From a virus (Duplodnaviria > Heunggongvirae > Uroviricota > Caudoviricetes): a stretch of 64,000 nucleotides of DNA. Both the position numbers and the translations under genes were made by a program. Of this stretch, positions 3,369 to 48,985 are shown one piece after another. Below the pieces are notes generated by a model. That model was not told the DNA's origin, made no database searches, and saw nothing but the letters and a program-made list of their open reading frames with translations. How positions within the stretch are numbered: the first letter of the stretch is position 1; each line of letters begins with the position of its first letter. The stretch lies in the IMG/VR virus record IMGVR_UViG_3300025316_000590, positions 128,134 through 192,133 of that record. One strand, 5' to 3'.

Positions 3369-3457
3369 CGAAACGTGTTTCTGGCCGGGAGGTGTCGCAG
3401 CCGAATATGCGGTGCCTCTCGGCCCGTTCGCGTTCCGCTAATCGCAAGGAGACAATC

Positions 3458-4738
3458 ATGTCGAAGCGTATGTTTGATGCTACCCGTGCTGAAGTGTGGG
3501 TGGCGATAGACGTTCCCGACTCCGATGCGATGATCGAAGCCCTGCACGAATTGGACAGGGCCAATCGACCGTTCGGTGTCAAAGTCGGCCTGGAGGTGGT
3601 GACCGCACTGGGGCTGCCGCACGTGGTCAGCATCGTCCGCAACAGGCCGATGTTCATCGACCTGAAGTTCAAGGACATCCCCAATACCGTGGGAGGAGCA
3701 TCTCGTGCCCTTCGGCGGTTTCATCCCACGATCTTCAACGTGCATGCCAGCGGTGGCGTTCGTATGATGAAGGCCGCCGTTGAGAATCGCGGTGAATCGG
3801 CGGTCTTCGCCGTCACTGTGCTGACCAGCCTGTCCGAACAAGAGGCTGGCATCAGCTACGGCGTGATATCTACGGGCTACGCAGTCGAAACGTTCGCCAA
3901 GCTGGCTGCCGAGGCCGGTGTGCAGGGGCTGATCTGTTCGGCAGCCGATCTGGCTGTGCAGGTAAGCCCCGACCTGCTGAAGCTGACGCCCGGCATTCGC
4001 CCGGATTGGGCTTCGGACAAGGGCGACCAGAAACGCGTCACGACGCCCGCCGAGGCCGCTGTGGCGGGTGCTGACGGCATCGTGGTAGGCAGGCCGATAC
4101 TTTCCCCGCCCAACGGCATCTTGCGGTGGCGAGCCCTACAGCGGGTTCACGACGAGTTCTGGTTGCTATCTGCACTGAAGGAACTGGGTGGGCTGCTGAA
4201 CGGGCACTACGTCTACAAGTCTGGTCGGCACGGGCCGCAGTACTTTAACAAGGACGTGTTGCTCAACGATGCCGATGCTGTACGTCAGGTGGGCCAGATG
4301 ATCGTCGACAGTCTTCCTGACGGCTACCGCTTCGATGTGGTGGTCGGCCCGGAGACGGGCGGTGCAAAGCTCGCTCGCGCGATTGGCGATATCATGGGTC
4401 AGCCGTGGGTTGGTGCGGAGAAGACGACCGATGGATTCTGGTTCCAGTCATGGAGCGATAAGTGGAAGGAGGTTCTCATCGTCGAGGATGTCCTGACCAC
4501 GGGCGGCAGTCTGGACAAGGTAGTCGCCGAGGTGAATCGTCTGGTTCGTGGCAGTAGCGACGCAGGTGGGCTGGTACAGGTCAAGCGAGCCGTATTGAAC
4601 CGCGGTGGCGTGGAGATGGTGAGCCTGGAGACCATAGCATCCCTCGATGCTGTAAGTTATTCCGCCGAGGAGTGTCCGTTATGTAAGGCCGGCGCGCCTA
4701 TCAGCACCGACGCCGGTCACGCAAAACCAAAGGTGTAG
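3458..4738 (+). CDS. bifunctional orotidine-5'-phosphate decarboxylase / orotate phosphoribosyltransferase fusion (ODC N-terminal, OPRT C-terminal)
   Basis: N-half has ODC signature IDLKFKDIPNTV; C-half has type-I PRT PRPP loop VLIVEDVLTTGGSL and YVYKSGRHGPQYF; RBS AAGGAGACAATCATG. Confidence 0.75.
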   Translation: MSKRMFDATRAEVWVAIDVPDSDAMIEALHELDRANRPFGVKVGLEVVTALGLPHVVSIVRNRPMFIDLKFKDIPNTVGGASRALRRFHPTIFNVHASGGVRMMKAAVENRGESAVFAVTVLTSLSEQEAGISYGVISTGYAVETFAKLAAEAGVQGLICSAADLAVQVSPDLLKLTPGIRPDWASDKGDQKRVTTPAEAAVAGADGIVVGRPILSPPNGILRWRALQRVHDEFWLLSALKELGGLLNGHYVYKSGRHGPQYFNKDVLLNDADAVRQVGQMIVDSLPDGYRFDVVVGPETGGAKLARAIGDIMGQPWVGAEKTTDGFWFQSWSDKWKEVLIVEDVLTTGGSLDKVVAEVNRLVRGSSDAGGLVQVKRAVLNRGGVEMVSLETIASLDAVSYSAEECPLCKAGAPISTDAGHAKPKV

Positions 4739-4853: not shown

Positions 4854-5927
4854 ATGCGGTTAGTGGATGCAGTGGCTCGATTGAAGATGGTCGGCCTGGG
4901 GTTGAGCGGAGACGCCAACGATGACACGGGGCAGTTCGTGTTCCGAGATGGGCGGGTATCAACCCACAACGGCGTGTTCGGCCTATGGGCCAACATGGAC
5001 ATCGGCATCGAGACGGCCCTGCCGGGCGACAAGCTGACGTCCCTCCTGTCGAAGTGCAACGGCACCGATGTGGAGTTCACGAACGTCGGCGATTCCGTTC
5101 GCATCACCTGCGGACGCACCAACGTCACGATGCGGAAGCTGGAGATCACTTCCAAGGAGATGCCCGAACTCGCGGGCGTGACCGTCGACTGGCGACGGGC
5201 GTGGACCGAGGCACTGGAGCGAGCTTCGTGGTCGATGAGCGATGACCCACAGCGACCTGACCTCGCGGGCATCACCATGAGCGCGGTCGAGAACGCGATG
5301 GTCTTCTACAGCACAATTGGCATGGGTATCACCCGCAGCATTGTGCCGGGAGCCAGCGACGACGTTCTGGTCGGCAGTGCCCTGATCATACCGTCCCGGT
5401 TCATGTGGGCGGTGCAGCGGGTGGTCGGCAGCCAACCATGCTCGGCGATTCAGTTTGCCGACGAGTATCTGCACGCCGTGTTCGGCGAAGGTGATAGTGC
5501 AGCACACCTGTACGGCAGCTTCCCGTCCGAGGCCAAGCCCGAACGATACGACGAGATCATCGCCGCCATTATCGATGGTCTGGAGTGGGTGGCCGTGCCC
5601 GCAGGGCTCGCACCGACTCTGGATCGCGTGGAGGCAGCCGGTGGCCGCGATACGATCACGGAGATCACCGTAGCCAACGGCAAGATGCGTCTGCATACCG
5701 ACGAGGACTTTGGCACCGTCGACGACGAATTGGACTTCCCTGGTGAGGGCGGACCCATTAAGGTGAAAGCCGCTGTGTTGCGGAAGGCGGCGTCGGTGTC
5801 CAACGAGATAGCCATCAGCGCGAACTGCGTCGGCCTACGCAGCGGTGATGGTTTCATGTACGTTCAGGCCACCGTGACGGATGCCACGGCAACCCCAGCA
5901 CCACAAGAGGAAGAAACGCAATCATGA
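4854..5927 (+). CDS. hypothetical protein; candidate sliding clamp (size and position upstream of polymerase, clamp loader present)
   Basis: 357 aa, strong RBS AAGGAGATAGATCATG; no diagnostic motif, assignment by size/context only. Confidence 0.3.
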   Translation: MRLVDAVARLKMVGLGLSGDANDDTGQFVFRDGRVSTHNGVFGLWANMDIGIETALPGDKLTSLLSKCNGTDVEFTNVGDSVRITCGRTNVTMRKLEITSKEMPELAGVTVDWRRAWTEALERASWSMSDDPQRPDLAGITMSAVENAMVFYSTIGMGITRSIVPGASDDVLVGSALIIPSRFMWAVQRVVGSQPCSAIQFADEYLHAVFGEGDSAAHLYGSFPSEAKPERYDEIIAAIIDGLEWVAVPAGLAPTLDRVEAAGGRDTITEITVANGKMRLHTDEDFGTVDDELDFPGEGGPIKVKAAVLRKAASVSNEIAISANCVGLRSGDGFMYVQATVTDATATPAPQEEETQS

Positions 5928-6397: not shown

Positions 6398-6405
6398 GTG
6401 TCTGG
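6398..6405 (+). promoter_or_regulatory. GTGTCTGG motif instance upstream of polA
   Basis: 26 nt before ATG 6431. Confidence 0.35.
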
Positions 6406-6430
6406 TGGAGACTACAGGAGGAAAGTAACA

Positions 6431-9070
6431 ATGGGCGACGGTAAGTTTTTCACCAGAATAGACCTGAAGGCCCCGACAACGGGGAGGGTCAAGCCGCGGA
6501 CGACTGGCCGCGACGAGGCGTACTATAACGAGAGGGGCTGCGACGCATGCCCGCTGGTCGATACCTGCGGTGGAATCGAGGATTCCCAGGTGAAGCCATC
6601 GGGAACGTCGCGGCCCCTCATCTACGTTCTGGGCGAAGCCCCAGGCAAAGATGAGGCTGAAGCGGGTGAACCGTTTGTTGGCAAGGCGGGCCAAGAGCTA
6701 CGCCGCCATCTGCCCGATATCAGTATCTGTAGATTCAACAACCCGGTGCGAGCACGGCCCGAGAACAACCGTGTGCCGACGATGTCCGAGGTGGAGTCAT
6801 GCCGACAGCACCTCGTGGCTGATATCGAACGCACCAAGCCTGCGGCAATCCTTGCCTGCGGAGCAACTGCCCTGAGTTGGTTCATCGGCGGTGAGCCACG
6901 AATCACAACGTGGCGTGGGCGTCGCCTGCCCGTGCAGGTAGGGAGTCATCGGTGCTGGATGTATCCGGTGATGCATCCGTCCTTTATCATACGGCAGGGC
7001 GGTGACAAGGGTGGACCCGACCGCGAGGCTCGCCAGCATGCCGTCATGTTCAAGCACGATATCAAGCGGTGTTTCGCCGAGACCAAGAAGGGTATCGACC
7101 TGGGTGACCTGCCCTGGAACATCGATGCTCTGGAGGATGGCGTGGAACTGGCGACGCCCAAGCTCGGCGTCAAGTGGGTGGTGAAGATGCTAGAGGACGC
7201 CGCGAAGGCGAAGATCTGCGGCCTCGACCTGGAAACCAACCGCGTGCGTCCCTACGCCAGCGGATCCCGAATTCTGAGCATGGCCATCAGCACGCCCAAG
7301 ACGGCGTTTGCATTCCCGATAGGCCACAGTGATGCGTGGTGGTCGGCAGAGGACGAGATCGTACTGACGAGTGCCATCCGAGGATTCCTGCTAACCAAGA
7401 TGATGAAGGTTGTCCACAACGCCAGCTTCGATATGGAGTGGCTGCTGCGGTTCTACGGCGTGCAAATCCTGAAGGATGATCTGTGGAATACGTGGGGTTG
7501 CACGCAGAACCAAGCGTACACCCTCGACGAACGCAAAGAGGACAGGATGCAAAGCCTCGATAGCCTGTGCCTGGAACGCTTGGGCACGCGGCTGAAGAAG
7601 TACAGCGACGTCGATGCCAAGCGTGGTGAGGTGGCCGAGATCGGGAAGCTCCTGCGGTACAACGCCCTTGATGCTAAGTGCCATAGGCTTCTGTACGAAG
7701 AGCAGAACCGGGCACTGAAAGCGACGGGTATGCTGAACACGTATCTCGATCATGTTCGTCGCGTACCGTTCCTCGTCTTGATGCAGCACAAGGGCGTTCC
7801 CGTCAGCCAGCCGGTGGTCGAGGAACTGCTGACAGACACTAACACCAAGATCAGGTTGGTAACGCAATCCGCCCTTGATACGCCCGAGGCTCATCAGTAT
7901 CGCAATACATGGGGCACGCCGTTCATCATCAACGGTAAGGGCAGCCGCGAATGCCTGGAGAAGGTGTTCGGGCACATCGAAGCCCTGTACCGCAAGGACG
8001 CCAACGGCGAGGAAGTTTTCACGACCGATAGCAGCGTATTCAGCACTATTGATTCGCCACTGGCCCACAGTATCAGCGAGTTCCGCGAGTGGACGAAGAT
8101 ACGCGATACTTATCTTCTGCCCATGCGTGCCGGTGCGGGTAGCTTGGTTTACGAGGACGGCAATCTGCATGCCAACTTCAATGGGACGTTCACCGATACC
8201 GGGCGGCTGTCGTCTGACGGCCCGAATATGCAGAACTTTCCCAAGCGTGAACACGCCGAGGTGCGGAAGATGGTATCGGCCCCTGAAGGCTGGCTCATTG
8301 TATCCGCCGATATGAAGCAACTGGAAGTCTGCGTGGCGGCCCAAATGTCGGGCGACAAGCGGTTGCTGAAGGCTGTCCGCGAACGGGCCGACATTCACAT
8401 GAAGTACGCGATCATGCTCAGCGAGGGCGTGCCGTTGTATTTGGAACTGGTCGGTCACGGTGATATCAAGAAGGCACGCTCGGCGATCAAGAGCCTGATC
8501 ACCTTCCCGTTTCTGTACGGTGCCATCCATACGACTGCCTCCCGCAACGTTCTGGCCAGCATGTCACAGTTCGACCGCGACAGGGCCGAAAGCGTCCGCA
8601 AGAAGGTGGAGAGAACCTGCGAGGACATCGAAAAGGAATTCTGGATTGAGTATCGTGATGTCAAGGCATGGCAGAACAAGCTGATGTCGGACTACGAGAA
8701 GAACGGCTATGTCACCTGCATGAACGGGCGTCGCCGCCGCGGGCCGCTGTCGATCAACCAGATCGCTAATACGCCTATTCAGGGCAGTGCCAGCGACCTT
8801 GTGGTGGACGCCGGCAATCGGCTGGCTCAGAAGGGCCTGCGGGACAATAACATGGCCCTGGTGATGAATATGAATATTCACGACGACCTGACGACCTTCG
8901 CCAAGAAGGAGGCCGCCGACGACGTGATGGCCGAAATGGTTGAAACCATGTTGCACCCCGGTTACGAGAACTGGGACATCAAGGCATGCCCGCTGGGCGT
9001 GGAGGTTTCTATCGGTTCCAACTGGTCGAATCAGAAGGCTATCGGGACGTGGTATAGCGACGAAGCCTGA
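6431..9070 (+). CDS. polA: DNA polymerase I (family A) with N-terminal UDG family-4-like domain and 3'-5' exonuclease domain
   Basis: UDG-4 motifs GEAPGKDEAEAGEPFVGKAGQEL and HPSFI plus Cys cluster; Exo I CGLDLETN; Pol motif A DMKQLEV, motif B K..FPFLYG, motif C NIHDDL; RBS AGGAGG 9 nt before ATG 6431 (alternative GTG 6398 would add N-terminal DYRRKVT). Confidence 0.9.
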   Translation: MGDGKFFTRIDLKAPTTGRVKPRTTGRDEAYYNERGCDACPLVDTCGGIEDSQVKPSGTSRPLIYVLGEAPGKDEAEAGEPFVGKAGQELRRHLPDISICRFNNPVRARPENNRVPTMSEVESCRQHLVADIERTKPAAILACGATALSWFIGGEPRITTWRGRRLPVQVGSHRCWMYPVMHPSFIIRQGGDKGGPDREARQHAVMFKHDIKRCFAETKKGIDLGDLPWNIDALEDGVELATPKLGVKWVVKMLEDAAKAKICGLDLETNRVRPYASGSRILSMAISTPKTAFAFPIGHSDAWWSAEDEIVLTSAIRGFLLTKMMKVVHNASFDMEWLLRFYGVQILKDDLWNTWGCTQNQAYTLDERKEDRMQSLDSLCLERLGTRLKKYSDVDAKRGEVAEIGKLLRYNALDAKCHRLLYEEQNRALKATGMLNTYLDHVRRVPFLVLMQHKGVPVSQPVVEELLTDTNTKIRLVTQSALDTPEAHQYRNTWGTPFIINGKGSRECLEKVFGHIEALYRKDANGEEVFTTDSSVFSTIDSPLAHSISEFREWTKIRDTYLLPMRAGAGSLVYEDGNLHANFNGTFTDTGRLSSDGPNMQNFPKREHAEVRKMVSAPEGWLIVSADMKQLEVCVAAQMSGDKRLLKAVRERADIHMKYAIMLSEGVPLYLELVGHGDIKKARSAIKSLITFPFLYGAIHTTASRNVLASMSQFDRDRAESVRKKVERTCEDIEKEFWIEYRDVKAWQNKLMSDYEKNGYVTCMNGRRRRGPLSINQIANTPIQGSASDLVVDAGNRLAQKGLRDNNMALVMNMNIHDDLTTFAKKEAADDVMAEMVETMLHPGYENWDIKACPLGVEVSIGSNWSNQKAIGTWYSDEA

Positions 9071-46600: not shown

Positions 46601-46653
46601 GCCTTGCACGGCTTGCGGATGACTGTTAACCTGAACGTAGGAGGTTAACAAAC

Positions 46654-46890
46654 ATGAGCACGCTATCGATCATACTAGCGAGCATCTGTTGCACGGCGGT
46701 CGTTCTGTCCGTGGGATACGATGCTTTGGCGTTTTACTTTGGGTGGTCAACGATTAGTTGGGCACTCTATCAATGGGATAAATCTTGGGCACAATTGCCT
46801 CGGTGGATCGCTGCTGCCATTTGGATGCACGTGTGCTACGGCGAAGCATCATATACCGCGGTTAGCCGCTATTTCGGACACATGCCATGA
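46654..46890 (+). CDS. small membrane protein
   Basis: RBS GGAGGTTAACAAACATG; TM helices. Confidence 0.35.
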   Translation: MSTLSIILASICCTAVVLSVGYDALAFYFGWSTISWALYQWDKSWAQLPRWIAAAIWMHVCYGEASYTAVSRYFGHMP

Positions 46891-47018
46891 ACAGCCCAGC
46901 AGAAGTCGCAGCCGAGCTTGTAGCCATCCTCAACGATGAGGTGAAGGGTATGGACGACCTTGGTCGGCGTATTGTGGCCAATAGGCTCGCCGAGGTCATC
47001 CAGCCCTTCCTGATGTAA
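46887..47018 (+). pseudogene. 43-aa remnant duplicating the N-terminus of the 47813..48178 protein (GC-rich native copy)
   Basis: MNSPAEVAAELVAILNDEVKGMDDLGRRIVANRLAEVIQPFLM vs MSPGEVASELAALVISEVSDMNDLGRRIVANRLGELISPWL. Confidence 0.5.
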
Positions 47019-47177
47019 ACTCTTCGCAGGACTGGCACGACGGCTACGTTCAGGGCCAGCTTGACTACGCCGAGGCGTTCCTGCGGGCGACCGCGGCGAT
47101 GCGGGAGAAGGCGGCGAAAGCGAAGGTGAAGCCGTGAGTTGCTATCGGCTGTGGTTTAATGTACCATGAGTCTAGTC

Positions 47178-47234
47178 GAGCATCGCCAATGCCCAAATCA
47201 TGTCCGCCACGCCCTGTCTGCGTTTGGCGATGCT
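47178..47234 (+). promoter_or_regulatory. 12-bp perfect inverted repeat (GAGCATCGCCAA / TTGGCGATGCTC) upstream of endonuclease-like gene
   Basis: stem flanks about 30-nt loop; third GCATCGCC copy overlaps RBS. Confidence 0.35.
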
Positions 47235-47270
47235 CCAGGGCCTCTGGCGGACTGCATAAGGAGCATCGCC

Positions 47271-47816
47271 ATGCTAGAACGACGACGAATTCAAACAAGT
47301 CCTGAAGAAATTAGGAAGGCTAGAAAGAGGTACACAAATCGCCAGTGTTACCTACGGAATCGTGAATCTATAAATATGCGTAGTGCAAAAAGATGGGCAG
47401 AACTTTGGAAGAATGATCCAGACAAGGCAAGGGCGATAATTGGCAAGAGTCAACGCAAGCATCGAGATCGTCGTCACGTAGATGTTTCCATAGCGTTAGA
47501 GTGTATGATGCGAAACGCACGTGCTCGTAGTGCCAGACGTAACCTGGATTGCAACATATCGCTAGAATACCTGCGTCAGGTTTATGATTTACAGGGCGGT
47601 GTTTGTGCTATAACGGCTATGCCGTTTGAGCAAACTACTGACTACGGAAAGATGTCGTTAGATCGTATTGATCCATCGTGTGGTTACGTTCAGGGTAACA
47701 TTAGAATTGTTTGGTTACTAGTGAATAACGCTATGGGTGTCTGGGGTGAGGGGCCTTTACTTCGAGTTGCAGAGGCGATTGTGGAACGGAATTTAGTAAG
47801 GAATCAACCTAAATGA
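47271..47816 (+). mobile_element. putative phage homing-type endonuclease gene (SLDRIDPS.GY..GN.RIV motif), AT-richer insert; N-terminus MLERRRIQT
   Basis: low-GC codon usage relative to flanks; sits between a truncated and a full copy of the same gene 5' end. Confidence 0.45.
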
Positions 47817-48178
47817 GTCCAGGTGAAGTTGCATCCGAGTTGGCAGCCTTGGTCATTAGCGAAGTTAGTGATATGAATGATCTCGGTCGTCGTATTGTTG
47901 CTAATCGTTTAGGCGAACTGATAAGTCCCTGGCTACCAGCACCTGTTCGTCCGGAACAGGGAACTGCGGCGACCGTACCCATGAACGATGTCGAGGCCAA
48001 AGCCTATGGCCAGACGGCGACCATGAGGTTTGGGAAGTACGAGGGTAAGCGTATCGATGCTGTTCCACTGGACTACCTAATATGGCTGACCGATGAGTCC
48101 CGCCGCCTGTGGCGTGAGATGCACAGGTACTTGAACAGTCCCCGCATCAAACTGGAGCGTGATCAGAAGGGGCTATGA
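47813..48178 (+). CDS. hypothetical protein (full-length copy whose 5' end is duplicated at 46887..47018)
   Basis: ATGA overlap with endonuclease gene; 5' portion AT-richer (donor-like). Confidence 0.45.
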   Translation: MSPGEVASELAALVISEVSDMNDLGRRIVANRLGELISPWLPAPVRPEQGTAATVPMNDVEAKAYGQTATMRFGKYEGKRIDAVPLDYLIWLTDESRRLWREMHRYLNSPRIKLERDQKGL

Positions 48179-48447
48179 TGAGTGACCTGCGGCCTACCTG
48201 CAAAGCGTGCCGGTGTAGATTCGATCCATCAAATCGTATGGATAAGCTATCGCGAGCCGGCATCACGCCGCACTGCCACGAGATGATGTACTGCCGTGAG
48301 TGTGCCGACGAACTGTTCCGCGACACGATCAGCAGCCGACCGGCCCAGCTATTCTCAGCCGGCCCAGGCTGTCCGATGGAACATGGCGGGAGCGACGATC
48401 CAAGCCCGTGGGAAGAAAACAACGTGCGACTGATGGAGGACGGGTGA
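48175..48447 (+). CDS. small Cys-rich zinc-ribbon protein
   Basis: CKACRC...HCHEMMYCRECADE. Confidence 0.3.
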   Translation: MMSDLRPTCKACRCRFDPSNRMDKLSRAGITPHCHEMMYCRECADELFRDTISSRPAQLFSAGPGCPMEHGGSDDPSPWEENNVRLMEDG

Positions 48448-48662
48448 TGCAAGTTGGACCGAAGCAGTGCGACGATGGGCCGTATTGCTGGGGCTGCGTT
48501 CATAACCTGGACAGCCACGGCGGGTTCTCCTGTCATCATCCAGATCGTGAATACGAGAGGCTGCCCTGGGATAATCATACGCCGCAGCGGTGTCCAGTAT
48601 TGAAAGCACCATGCACGACATCGACCAAGCTACTGCCGAGATCATCTTCCACGGGCTCATAA
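48447..48662 (+). CDS. small Cys/His-rich protein
   Basis: CDDGPYCWGCVHN...CHHPD. Confidence 0.25.
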   Translation: MQVGPKQCDDGPYCWGCVHNLDSHGGFSCHHPDREYERLPWDNHTPQRCPVLKAPCTTSTKLLPRSSSTGS

Positions 48663-48985
48663 ATAAGTCTGGGCCGCCGGTGGTCATGGTTCGGGACAAG
48701 TTCGGCCAGTACACGAGGTCCGAGACCGGCGAGGCTCCCGGCCATTTGCCGTGGGGCGAGGAAGACGCCGGTTTGCCCGCCTGGGACAAGCCCCTGGCCG
48801 ATGTATCGGCCTTAACTACCCGAACGCCAGCCCAGGCCCCGTCACGACCCGCTGTGACGCCGCCTGTGGCCGCACGTGAGCCCGTCGCCCGCAGGTCGAT
48901 AGAACGGCTGGCCAGTGACTTTGACCGCCTGTGGGGCCAAACAGCGGCCCCTGCCACCCCAACGCGAAGGAGGATCCAAACATGA
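48611..48985 (+). CDS. hypothetical protein ending ...PTRRRIQT*
   Basis: C-terminal recurrent basic motif; Pro/Ala-rich linker. Confidence 0.35.
   Translation: MHDIDQATAEIIFHGLINKSGPPVVMVRDKFGQYTRSETGEAPGHLPWGEEDAGLPAWDKPLADVSALTTRTPAQAPSRPAVTPPVAAREPVARRSIERLASDFDRLWGQTAAPATPTRRRIQT

What the first reader, a model, noticed from the sequence alone, without database searches (positions are those of the whole stretch)
46887..48178. Footprint of a homing-endonuclease insertion: target-gene 5' end duplicated, with AT-richer donor-type copy
The 43-aa ORF 46887..47018 matches the N-terminus of the 47813..48178 protein. Both contain ...EVA.EL.A....EV..M.DLGRRIVANRL.E.I.P.L. The two DNA copies are highly diverged.
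The upstream copy is GC-rich like the genome. The downstream copy and the intervening endonuclease-like gene (47271..47816) are visibly AT-richer.
This is the pattern expected when a free-standing homing endonuclease moves in together with co-converted flanking donor sequence, leaving the original 5' exon-like remnant.
A 12-bp perfect inverted repeat (47178..47234) lies just upstream of the endonuclease gene.
Basis: seen in the sequence. Interest (0 to 1): 0.65.

Follow-up and report, generated by a model that had tools for sequence, protein, structure and literature searches.

The report
Homing-nuclease insertion scar in a phage gene
A selfish nuclease gene entered this large phage together with the front end of its neighbouring gene, and it left behind a dead copy of the original front end joined to a scrap of the donor's upstream gene; this is a clear natural example of a known process.

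Summary
ORF 46887..47018 (43 aa) matches the first 41 residues of the 121-aa protein 47813..48178 (26/40 identical, E 5e-17; DNA 64%).

GC3 is 0.36 in the nuclease gene 47271..47816 and 0.31 in codons 1-51 of the 121-aa gene. It is 0.70 in the upstream copy and about 0.74 genome-wide.

Two groups of related metagenomic phages have one intact copy of the gene, no nuclease gene there and no 43-aa ORF. The upstream copy is closer to their orthologues than the downstream 5' end is.

New points:
- The remnant is a chimera. About 40 codons of the resident gene are joined, out of frame, to the last ~39 codons of a gene that lies directly upstream of the orthologue in one relative group. The joint is a 13-nt patch of microhomology (46996..47008).
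- Three copies of a 12-nt element can sequester its ribosome-binding site.

Best reading: invasion by a free-standing homing endonuclease through one-sided, microhomology-joined break repair. Cleavage activity is untested. This is a new member of a known kind, of moderate interest.

The parts
46654..46890 (+). 78-aa gene, the conserved left neighbour. Its TGA overlaps the ATG of the remnant (ATGA).
   Evidence: Orthologues sit in the same position in L001-L012. blastn gives 75% identity to L007.
46887..47018 (+). 43-aa ORF, the remnant of the resident-type 5' end of the 121-aa gene. It holds about codons 1-41, then 2-3 out-of-frame codons of the next fragment and TAA. It covers both predicted N-terminal helices.
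   Evidence: GC3 is 0.70.
46996..47008 (.). Recombination joint: a microhomology patch TCATCCAGCCCTT. Both the 121-type gene and the 106-type gene of relatives align here.
   Evidence: The blastn segments overlap: 46902-47007 matches the L007 123-aa gene, and 46996-47093 matches the L007 106-aa gene. Alignment A4 shows it.
47021..47137 (+). 3' fragment (38 codons plus stop) of a 106-aa-type gene, SSQDWHDGYVQGQLDYAEAFLRATAAMREKAAKAKVKP*. It has no usable start and lies in frame +2 relative to the 43-aa ORF. It ends in GTGA where L007 has the ATGA stop/start overlap with the 123-aa gene.
   Evidence: GC3 is 0.87.
47138..47270 (+). Spacer found only in the insert-bearing genome. It holds three copies of GAGCATCGCCA(A): 47178-47189 (+), 47224-47236 (-) and 47260-47271 (+). 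The last copy contains the SD GGAG and reaches the start codon. The copies allow alternative hairpins.
   Evidence: Folding energies are -23.4, -28.5 and -46.9 kcal/mol, with z down to -3.6. L007 has no spacer here.
47271..47816 (+). 181-aa PacI-like His-Me finger (beta-beta-alpha-metal) endonuclease gene, free-standing. Proposed catalytic set: D131, Y139, N152, plus R132 and N143. Its TGA overlaps the ATG of the 121-aa gene.
47813..47965 (+). Codons 1-51 of the intact 121-aa gene. This is the foreign, low-GC3 (0.31) 5' part that travelled with the nuclease gene. It encodes the N-terminal helical hairpin and most of the disordered linker.
47966..48178 (+). Codons 52-121 of the 121-aa gene. It has genome-type composition (GC3 0.71) and carries the QSregVF_b-like C-terminal domain.
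   Evidence: Pfam PF12843, 23.9 bits against a cut-off of 22..

Best explanation
This is the scar of an invasion by a free-standing homing-type endonuclease gene.

Parent X, the resident lineage, had the 78-aa gene followed directly by the 121-aa gene.

Parent Y, the donor, had a 106-aa-type gene. After it came a structured spacer and the PacI-like nuclease gene. These were inserted exactly at the stop/start overlap ((A/G)TGAG is found at both ends, 47134-47138 and 47813-47817). Then came a 121-type gene whose first ~51 codons share the low GC3 of the nuclease gene.

Proposed sequence of events (inferred):
1. A break formed in X's 121-aa gene, in or near the linker codons 42-52. It was probably made by the nuclease during co-infection.
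2. The right end was repaired by homologous copying from Y. Copying ran leftward through the 5' end of Y's gene, the nuclease gene, the spacer and part of the 106-type gene.
3. The left end had no good homology at the right place. It was sealed illegitimately at a 13-nt microhomology (46996-47008).

Result (shown):
- A truncated resident 5' end, the 43-aa ORF.
- An out-of-frame 3' scrap of the donor's upstream gene.
- The nuclease gene.
- A functional mosaic 121-aa gene: foreign N-terminal helical hairpin plus resident-type C-terminal domain.

The tract from the nuclease gene to the cut site must co-convert at every homing event. That would explain why it keeps the nuclease gene's composition (inferred).

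The spacer hairpins probably limit translation of the nuclease by hiding its ribosome-binding site, as in T4 (inferred).
For: Duplication and mosaic composition.

Insert-free single-copy alleles in two relative groups, and no member of the nuclease family in those loci.

Relative to L001, the gene is split exactly in two. Window 46938-47008 matches gene nt 49-119, and window 47937-48178 matches gene nt 125-366.

The fragment 47021-47137 matches the C-terminus of the L007 106-aa protein, whose gene abuts the 123-aa orthologue. Junction microhomology.

Nuclease identity:
- 6604 family representatives share the invariant pattern S.DR...GY...N...N.
- The family profile hits PacI, E 0.0034, across the catalytic motif.
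- PacI uses Tyr as general base, with Asp and Asn on the metal (PMC4081073, PMC5714182).

Family genes are AT-richer than their flanks in 67 of 80 viral contigs.

The phage encodes RecA/UvsX-like, gp32-like and Mre11/Rad50-like proteins. These are the functions T4 homing depends on (PMC2988022).

One-sided homing with illegitimate, microhomology junctions has been shown experimentally for the T4 td intron (reviewed in PMC2988022). RBS-hiding hairpins of T4 homing endonuclease genes are described in the same review.

There is no intron or other Rfam RNA.
Against: - No cleavage or homing has been shown for this protein.
- Homing has not been shown for any phage PacI-like enzyme I could find. One Skunavirus PacI-like enzyme was included in an exclusion assay, and the strong EOP reductions quoted were for two other enzymes (PMC12724721).
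- Neither the donor nor an empty-site allele of the same lineage was found.
- A single illegitimate crossover between two co-infecting phages would give the same structure without a nuclease-made break.
- The spacer and the 106-type fragment are GC-rich, unlike the nuclease gene. The cassette therefore has at least a two-step history.
- The PacI zinc-binding cysteines are absent.
- Synonymous sites are saturated even among relatives, so the event cannot be dated.
Confidence: 0.65

Rival explanations
1. Ordinary phage mosaicism. One illegitimate (microhomology) crossover between two related co-infecting phages with different gene orders made the chimera. The nuclease gene was only a passenger in one parent and played no part in the break.
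For: One crossover at 46996-47008 is enough topologically. Gene order here differs among relatives anyway: the Zn-finger-like gene changes sides and the 106-aa gene is present or absent. No activity data exist.
Against: The truncation point of the remnant (codon ~41) lies within 10 codons of the end of the foreign low-GC3 tract (codon 51). That fits both events being seeded by a break at one site. The nuclease gene and the adjoining 5' gene segment share an exceptional composition, so they move as a unit. The nuclease gene is absent from all 12 related loci.
Confidence: 0.17
2. The 181-aa protein is not a homing enzyme. It would be a PacI-like nuclease or DNA-binding protein with another role, such as host or competitor DNA attack or regulation (like T4 Srd, whose PHROG family matches the same core). 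It would have been acquired as a moron, and the scar would be a by-product of its insertion.
For: PHROG hits include 'Srd anti-sigma factor' (E 8.6e-11) and 'decoy of host sigma70' (E 1.9e-5). The Cys4 zinc sites of PacI are missing. In PMC12724721 the strong EOP reductions quoted were for two other enzymes, not the PacI-like one tested.
Against: All residues that PacI uses for catalysis are invariant in the family and present here. The gene shows sporadic presence, compositional foreignness, an intergenic position at a stop/start overlap and a co-travelling target-gene segment. These are the hallmarks of free-standing homing genes.
Confidence: 0.12
3. The 43-aa ORF is kept as a working small protein, a stand-alone N-terminal helical hairpin. 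It would be a short paralogue rather than dead debris.
For: It keeps an ATG in an ATGA overlap with the upstream gene, which allows translational coupling. It covers both predicted helices, 3-18 and 23-40. It is identical on 21-24 contigs.
Against: It is absent from both groups of relatives. It ends in out-of-frame codons of another gene's fragment. The identical contigs carry no variation, so they give no evidence of selection. A search of the flanks of 80 other family members found no other duplication.
Confidence: 0.08
4. Assembly artefact: a chimeric contig joining two strains.
For: Several short contigs break inside 47068-47126, and one (L104) diverges after 47126.
Against: The full arrangement is reproduced at 99.9-100% identity in independent assemblies from different projects and assemblers. 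These include contigs of 192.5 kb, 3957 bp and 3782 bp, and a Logan contig.
Confidence: 0.01

Closest known systems
One-sided (limited-homology) homing of the T4 td intron with illegitimate double-strand-break repair (Parker, Belisle and Belfort 1999, as reviewed in PMC2988022)
   Same: There is homology on one side of the break only. The other side is sealed at a microhomology after resection. That is the route by which a homing element reaches a site lacking one flank.
   Different: That was a laboratory construct with an intron-encoded GIY-YIG enzyme. Here it is a natural, fixed event with a free-standing PacI-like enzyme. It also left a duplicated target 5' end and a piece of the donor's upstream gene.
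T4 free-standing homing endonucleases with distant cleavage sites and co-conversion: SegG/gene 32, SegB, MobE/nrdB (PMC2988022, PMC2790892, PMC2330249)
   Same: The gene sits between genes. The inferred cut lies ~125-155 nt away inside the neighbouring gene. The DNA between gene and cut is co-inherited. A hairpin hides the ribosome-binding site.
   Different: The nuclease family differs (PacI-like Tyr-type His-Me finger, not GIY-YIG or I-HmuI-like HNH). The cut site is inferred only. The T4 cases leave no target duplication.
Restriction endonuclease PacI (PDB 3LDY/3M7K)
   Different: Sequence identity in the fold alignments is about 12-16%. The two Cys4 zinc sites are missing. There is a different N-terminal region of four long helices. 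The setting is a phage intergenic gene rather than a bacterial restriction enzyme.
PacI-like free-standing HNH endonucleases of lactococcal Skunavirus phages (PMC12724721)
   Same: They are phage-encoded, free-standing, variably present and classed as PacI-like by profile comparison. They are presumed to be homing enzymes.
   Different: They are rare there (2 of 268) and sit in a morphogenesis module. No insertion scar was described, and homing was not demonstrated for them.
F-CphI / DHHRN (Endo VII-motif) homing endonucleases (PMC6083498)
   Same: It is a free-standing phage homing enzyme built on a His-Me finger related to T4 Endo VII. A canonical member (230 aa, PF02945) sits two genes upstream in the L007-type relatives.
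   Different: The window protein lacks the two His residues and does not reach PF02945.
T4 mobA with the gene 60 bypass segment, and Aeh1 mobE splitting nrdA (from my own knowledge; papers not read here)
   Same: A homing gene travels with, or remodels, part of its target gene, and the target stays functional.
   Different: Those cases split the target into two expressed pieces or add a bypass element. Here the target stays whole as a mosaic and the old 5' end is left as debris.

Membership tests
Free-standing homing endonuclease gene (functional class) | Encodes a nuclease domain with its catalytic residues intact | tested here: met
   The family-invariant residues S129, D131, Y139 and N152, plus R132, G138 and N143, are all present. 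They align with the PacI catalytic motif. The fold is confirmed.
Free-standing homing endonuclease gene (functional class) | Sporadic: present or absent at the same locus among close relatives | tested here: met
   It is absent from L001-L012, which keep the flanking genes. The only close homologue is the identical protein itself.
Free-standing homing endonuclease gene (functional class) | Intergenic, with its own translation signals, and not inside an intron or intein | tested here: met
   AAGGAG lies 7 nt before ATG 47271. There are stop/start overlaps at both ends of the insertion. No Rfam match.
Free-standing homing endonuclease gene (functional class) | Flanking DNA between the gene and the cut site is co-converted with it | tested here: met
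   The evidence is indirect. One low-GC3 tract runs 47271-47965, with a change point after codon 51 (p 0.0002). The 5' end is the outlier among orthologues.
Free-standing homing endonuclease gene (functional class) | Cuts the allele that lacks it at a specific site, and its own allele is resistant | not testable with these tools
   Needs purified protein and substrates.
PacI-like His-Me finger nucleases (group 20 of PMC5714182) | Beta-beta-alpha-metal fold | tested here: met
PacI-like His-Me finger nucleases (group 20 of PMC5714182) | Tyr in the omega loop replaces the general-base His, with Asp and Asn as metal ligands | tested here: met
   SLDRIDPSCGYVQGNIRIV....N aligns with PacI VDRSDSFEGYSPQNARLA....N. 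The residue roles come from PMC4081073 and PMC5714182.
PacI-like His-Me finger nucleases (group 20 of PMC5714182) | Two Cys4 zinc sites around the core | tested here: not met
   Only C112 is conserved in the family. The window has VWLLVNN where PacI has ACFICN.
Endonuclease VII / DHHRN family (PF02945, F-CphI) | Reaches the Pfam model and has the D-H-H-R-N catalytic set | tested here: not met
   No Pfam hit even at E 1. DRID replaces DHDH. Only a weak match to the L007 PF02945 protein, E 0.016. The PHROG 'endonuclease VII' hit reflects the shared core only.
QSregVF_b (PF12843), for the target gene's product | Score above the Pfam gathering threshold | tested here: met
   23.9 bits against 22, over residues 69-94. 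The function of this domain is unknown.

The most novel reading that the evidence does not exclude
The nuclease gene and the first ~51 codons of its target gene would form a single mobile cassette. The cassette would carry a recoded, cleavage-immune N-terminal domain module from phage to phage, which would explain why that segment keeps the nuclease gene's foreign composition.

In addition, the Tyr-type (PacI-like, zinc-less) His-Me finger proteins would be a large, unrecognised family of phage homing endonucleases. They form at least 6604 clusters at 50% identity and have no Pfam or NCBIfam model.
Probability: 0.3. Interest if true: 0.55.

Novelty: new member of a known kind. Interest (0 to 1): 0.4.

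Why it matters
The scar records, in one natural sequence, how a free-standing homing gene can enter a genome that lacks homology on one side.
- The microhomology joint is preserved.
- A scrap of the donor's upstream gene shows the donor's gene order.
- The extent of the co-converted tract points to the likely cut site, the linker codons 42-52 of the 121-aa gene.

This gives a direct, cheap experiment for a nuclease family that is very common in phage metagenomes but has no curated model and no demonstrated homing member.

It also shows a break-and-repair joint falling in a disordered linker, which yields a working domain-swapped gene. For genome annotation, 46887..47137 should be marked as two pseudogene fragments rather than as a small gene.

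Tried and rejected
Searches for the same phage, an empty-site allele or the donor all failed.
- blastn of 7 kb against 50,697 phage records: no match.
- IMG/VR scans with the 121-aa and 181-aa proteins and with their alignment: nothing close.
- JGI metagenome scan: one distant hit only.
- Protein search with the 106-type fragment: nothing.
- Exact DNA patterns from the upstream copy and from the L104 variant tail in IMG/VR: nothing.
- Look-up of the 65-aa cluster member: not on record.

Other checks.
- I tested a hypothetical in-frame deletion between the 8-nt repeats CGCCGAGG (46988 and 47068), which would explain contigs starting at 47068. That fusion protein is not in the collection.
- Pfam and NCBIfam have no model for the 181-aa protein or for 40 of its homologues.
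- A single-sequence PDB search gave only chance antibody hits.
- Endo VII membership was considered and rejected because the His residues are absent.
- A group I intron or other RNA was considered and rejected.
- A general tendency of this nuclease family to sit between duplicated flanks was rejected. Only the window shows it among the 81 loci scanned: 80 viral contigs plus the window.
- The 216-aa reading from ATG 47166 was rejected in favour of 47271. The latter has the SD, the family alignment starts there, and the extra 35 codons are GC-rich hairpin sequence.
Full report
THE OBSERVATION

The 43-aa ORF 46887..47018 aligns without gaps to residues 2-41 of the 121-aa protein encoded at 47813..48178. 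Identity is 26/40 and similarity 32/40, with E 5e-17 for the pair. At the DNA level the copies share 77/120 nt, and only 16/40 third codon positions are identical.

- Upstream copy: GC3 0.70.
- Gene 47271..47816: GC3 0.363.
- Codons 1-42 of the downstream gene: GC3 0.333.
- Codons 53-121 of the downstream gene: GC3 0.71.
- In 628 windows of 42 codons from long genes of this window, GC3 averages 0.737 and is never below 0.452.

A two-segment change-point test on third positions of the 121-aa gene places the switch after codon 51 (about 47965). GC3 is 0.314 to the left and 0.714 to the right, with permutation p 0.0002.

The 12-nt perfect inverted repeat is at 47178-47189 / 47224-47235.

The arrangement is not an assembly artefact. 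Every contig that carries the 43-aa ORF, the nuclease or the 121-aa protein is 99.9-100% identical to the window. That is 17-24 contigs from several projects and assemblers, the longest 192.5 kb.

RELATIVES WITHOUT THE INSERT

A search of 5.8 billion proteins found only two other clusters of the 121-aa protein: P0002 (74% identical) and P0003 (71% identical). Their contigs, from ENA GROS21 metagenomes, keep the neighbourhood.
- L001-L006 have the order 237 aa - 78 aa - 88 aa (Zn-finger-like) - 121 aa.
- L007-L012 have the order 242 aa - 230 aa - 78 aa - 106 aa - 123 aa.

None has a short N-terminal duplicate. None has a nuclease gene next to the 121-aa gene. A profile of the nuclease family finds nothing in these 12 loci.

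WHICH COPY IS RESIDENT

The upstream copy shares GMDDLGRRIVANRLAEVI exactly with P0003.

Nei-Gojobori distances over the first 42 codons:
- Upstream copy to the two orthologues: dN 0.19 and 0.26. This is inside the family range, since L001-L007 is 0.30.
- Downstream 5' end to the orthologues: dN 0.35-0.36, with 84-93% of synonymous sites different.

Over codons 53-121 the downstream gene is ordinary (dN 0.11-0.17).

Against L001 the gene looks literally split. Window 46938-47008 matches gene nt 49-119, and window 47937-48178 matches gene nt 125-366.

THE REMNANT IS A CHIMERA

Directly after the 43-aa ORF, in another frame, 47021..47137 encodes SSQDWHDGYVQGQLDYAEAFLRATAAMREKAAKAKVKP*. This matches the C-terminus of the L007 106-aa protein (...SQDWHDGYAQGQLDYAAAFRKATEDMHKAKP*). 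In L007 the stop of that gene overlaps the start of the 123-aa orthologue as ATGA.

blastn aligns window 46902-47007 to the L007 123-aa gene and window 46996-47093 to the L007 106-aa gene. The two segments overlap in TCATCCAGCCCTT. There, both parental gene types read TCATCC..CC(C)CTT.

The 43-aa ORF is therefore about 40 codons of the resident gene, followed by 2-3 out-of-frame codons of the 106-type fragment and a TAA. The 106-type fragment has no usable start. It ends in GTGAG (47134-47138), and the nuclease gene ends in ATGAG (47813-47817). This means that, in the donor, the spacer and the nuclease gene had been inserted precisely at the 106/121 stop-start overlap.

THE NUCLEASE

Sequence evidence:
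- The 181-aa protein has no Pfam or NCBIfam hit.
- It matches PHROG 3322 'endonuclease' (E 1.4e-21). It matches the 'endonuclease VII', 'HNH' and 'Srd' families more weakly.
- An exhaustive HMMER search found 6604 cluster representatives at E <= 0.001.
- Forty of them aligned with it show invariant C112, S129, D131, Y139 and N152. R132, G138, N143 and R145 are nearly invariant. The window protein has all of these.
- A profile of this alignment hits restriction endonuclease PacI (3LDY, E 0.0034) exactly across this motif.

Structural evidence:
- The AlphaFold model is confident (pLDDT 93). It shows four long helices followed by a beta-beta-alpha core.
- Foldseek returns PacI (probability 0.99), Cas9 HNH domains, Gme HNH and T4 Endo VII.

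PacI is the known His-Me finger in which a tyrosine of the omega loop replaces the general-base histidine, while Asp and Asn hold the metal (PMC4081073; PMC5714182, group 20). The protein is therefore a plausible active nuclease of the PacI type. It lacks PacI's Cys4 zinc sites. It fails the Endo VII/DHHRN definition.

Across 80 viral contigs the family gene is AT-richer than its flanks in 67, with a mean difference of -0.038. This is typical of mobile nuclease genes. PacI-like free-standing HNH genes have been noted as presumptive homing genes in Skunavirus phages, without proof of homing (PMC12724721).

THE SPACER

The 133-nt spacer 47138-47270 has no counterpart in L007. It carries GAGCATCGCCA three times: 47178 (+), 47225 (-) and 47261 (+). 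The third copy includes the Shine-Dalgarno GGAG and reaches the A of the start codon.

The middle arm can pair in two ways:
- With the first arm: -23.4 kcal/mol.
- With the third arm: -28.5 kcal/mol, z -3.5. This hides the ribosome-binding site.

The whole region can also form one long hairpin (-46.9 kcal/mol, z -3.6). RBS-hiding hairpins are the known control for T4 I-TevI, I-TevII, I-TevIII, segB and Aeh1 mobE (PMC2988022). That this element works the same way is inference.

MECHANISM

Shown: the anatomy, the two parental types, the microhomology joint and the compositional tract.

Inferred:
1. A break in the resident 121-aa gene near codons 42-52, probably made by the nuclease during a mixed infection.
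2. Homologous repair on the right side, copying leftward from the donor.
3. An illegitimate microhomology join on the left. The resident genome had the 121-aa gene directly after the 78-aa gene and lacked the 106-type gene, so no proper left homology existed.

This is the 'one-sided' homing with illegitimate break repair demonstrated for the T4 td intron (reviewed in PMC2988022). The phage encodes its own RecA/UvsX-like, gp32-like and Mre11/Rad50-like proteins and a family A polymerase. These are the functions that T4 homing uses.

The remnant's truncation (codon ~41) and the end of the foreign tract (codon 51) lie within 10 codons of each other. Both fall in the segment that the low-confidence model of the 121-aa protein predicts as a disordered linker (residues 43-52, pLDDT < 50). 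That linker sits between an N-terminal helical hairpin and the QSregVF_b-like C-terminal domain. This coincidence is the main argument that one break site seeded both features. It also predicts where the enzyme cuts.

A single nuclease-independent illegitimate crossover would give the same map and cannot be excluded.

LIMITS

- No donor and no empty-site allele of the same lineage were found.
- Synonymous sites are saturated, so timing is unknown.
- All copies of the 43-aa ORF are identical, so selection on it cannot be tested. It keeps an ATGA-coupled start and both helices, so expression is possible.
- Among 81 loci with a family member (80 viral contigs plus the window), only the window shows duplicated flanks. 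The scar is a rare accident, not a property of the family.

VERDICT

This is a well-preserved natural footprint of a known process, involving a nuclease family that has not been characterised as homing enzymes. It is a new member of a known kind, of moderate interest.

Noticed in passing
window 46630-46639 (-), 47045-47054 (+), 47685-47694 (+); also 5859-5868 (+): TACGTTCAGG occurs 4 times in 64 kb (0.05 expected), and 3 of these lie within 1.1 kb of the scar. One is in the leader of the 78-aa gene, where it forms a 15/16 inverted match with 47685-47700. One is in the 106-type fragment. One is in the nuclease gene. In the last two it encodes GYVQG. It could be chance, recombination microhomology or a recognition or regulatory site.
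   Followed up: partly
L007-L010: 4762-5454: The L007-type relatives carry a different nuclease gene two genes upstream, between the 242-aa and 78-aa genes. The window has only a 53-nt spacer there. It is a canonical Endo VII/DHHRN-type protein (230 aa, PF02945, motif CAIC...SVDHDHETG...CHYCN). Its GC3 is 0.55 against 0.63-0.79 for its neighbours. The region appears to be a hotspot for free-standing nuclease genes.
   Followed up: partly
window 48175-48447; L001: 5735-6001: The Zn-finger-like 88-90-aa gene lies downstream of the 121-aa gene in the window and upstream of it in L001-L006. It is missing from this place in L007-L012. So gene order around the target gene has been reshuffled more than once.
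   Followed up: no
L104: 2315-2345 (after window 47126); L105 and L106 end at window 47116 and 47114; L018 and L019 start at window 47068: Several independent short contigs break inside the 106-type fragment. One continues after 47126 with an unrelated 31-nt tail (...AKADGAPTPKKK in the fragment's frame). This may be a co-occurring variant or an assembly join. CGCCGAGG occurs at both 46988 and 47068 in the same codon phase.
   Followed up: partly
window 47514-47729 (residues 82-153 of the 181-aa protein): PHROG families named 'Srd anti-sigma factor' (E 8.6e-11) and 'decoy of host sigma70' (E 1.9e-5) match the PacI-like core. T4 Srd-type proteins may therefore contain this nuclease-like domain.
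   Followed up: no
window 46611-46663: The leader of the 78-aa gene has its own hairpin, TGTTAACCT...AGGTTAACA. The 3' arm overlaps the GGAGG Shine-Dalgarno sequence. This is a second possible RBS-hiding structure.
   Followed up: no
window 48447-48985; L001: 6363-6908: The window has two overlapping ORFs in different frames: 71 aa with a CWGC...CHH motif, and 124 aa. L001 has one 181-aa gene whose middle part corresponds to a different frame of the window DNA. L007 has an 81-aa version. This may be a frameshift difference among relatives.
   Followed up: no
window 3392-4738 and 6398-9070: The phage encodes an OMP decarboxylase fused to a phosphoribosyltransferase domain. It also encodes a family A DNA polymerase with an N-terminal uracil-DNA-glycosylase-like domain. 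These hint at unusual pyrimidine metabolism or DNA modification.
   Followed up: no
L015: 1520-1755; L014: 1-51: Two short contigs leave the window sequence abruptly. L015 switches after window 48207 to a stretch that looked to me, by eye, like a polymerase motif (not translated or searched). L014 has 51 unrelated nt before window 46827. These are probably chimeric joins.
   Followed up: no
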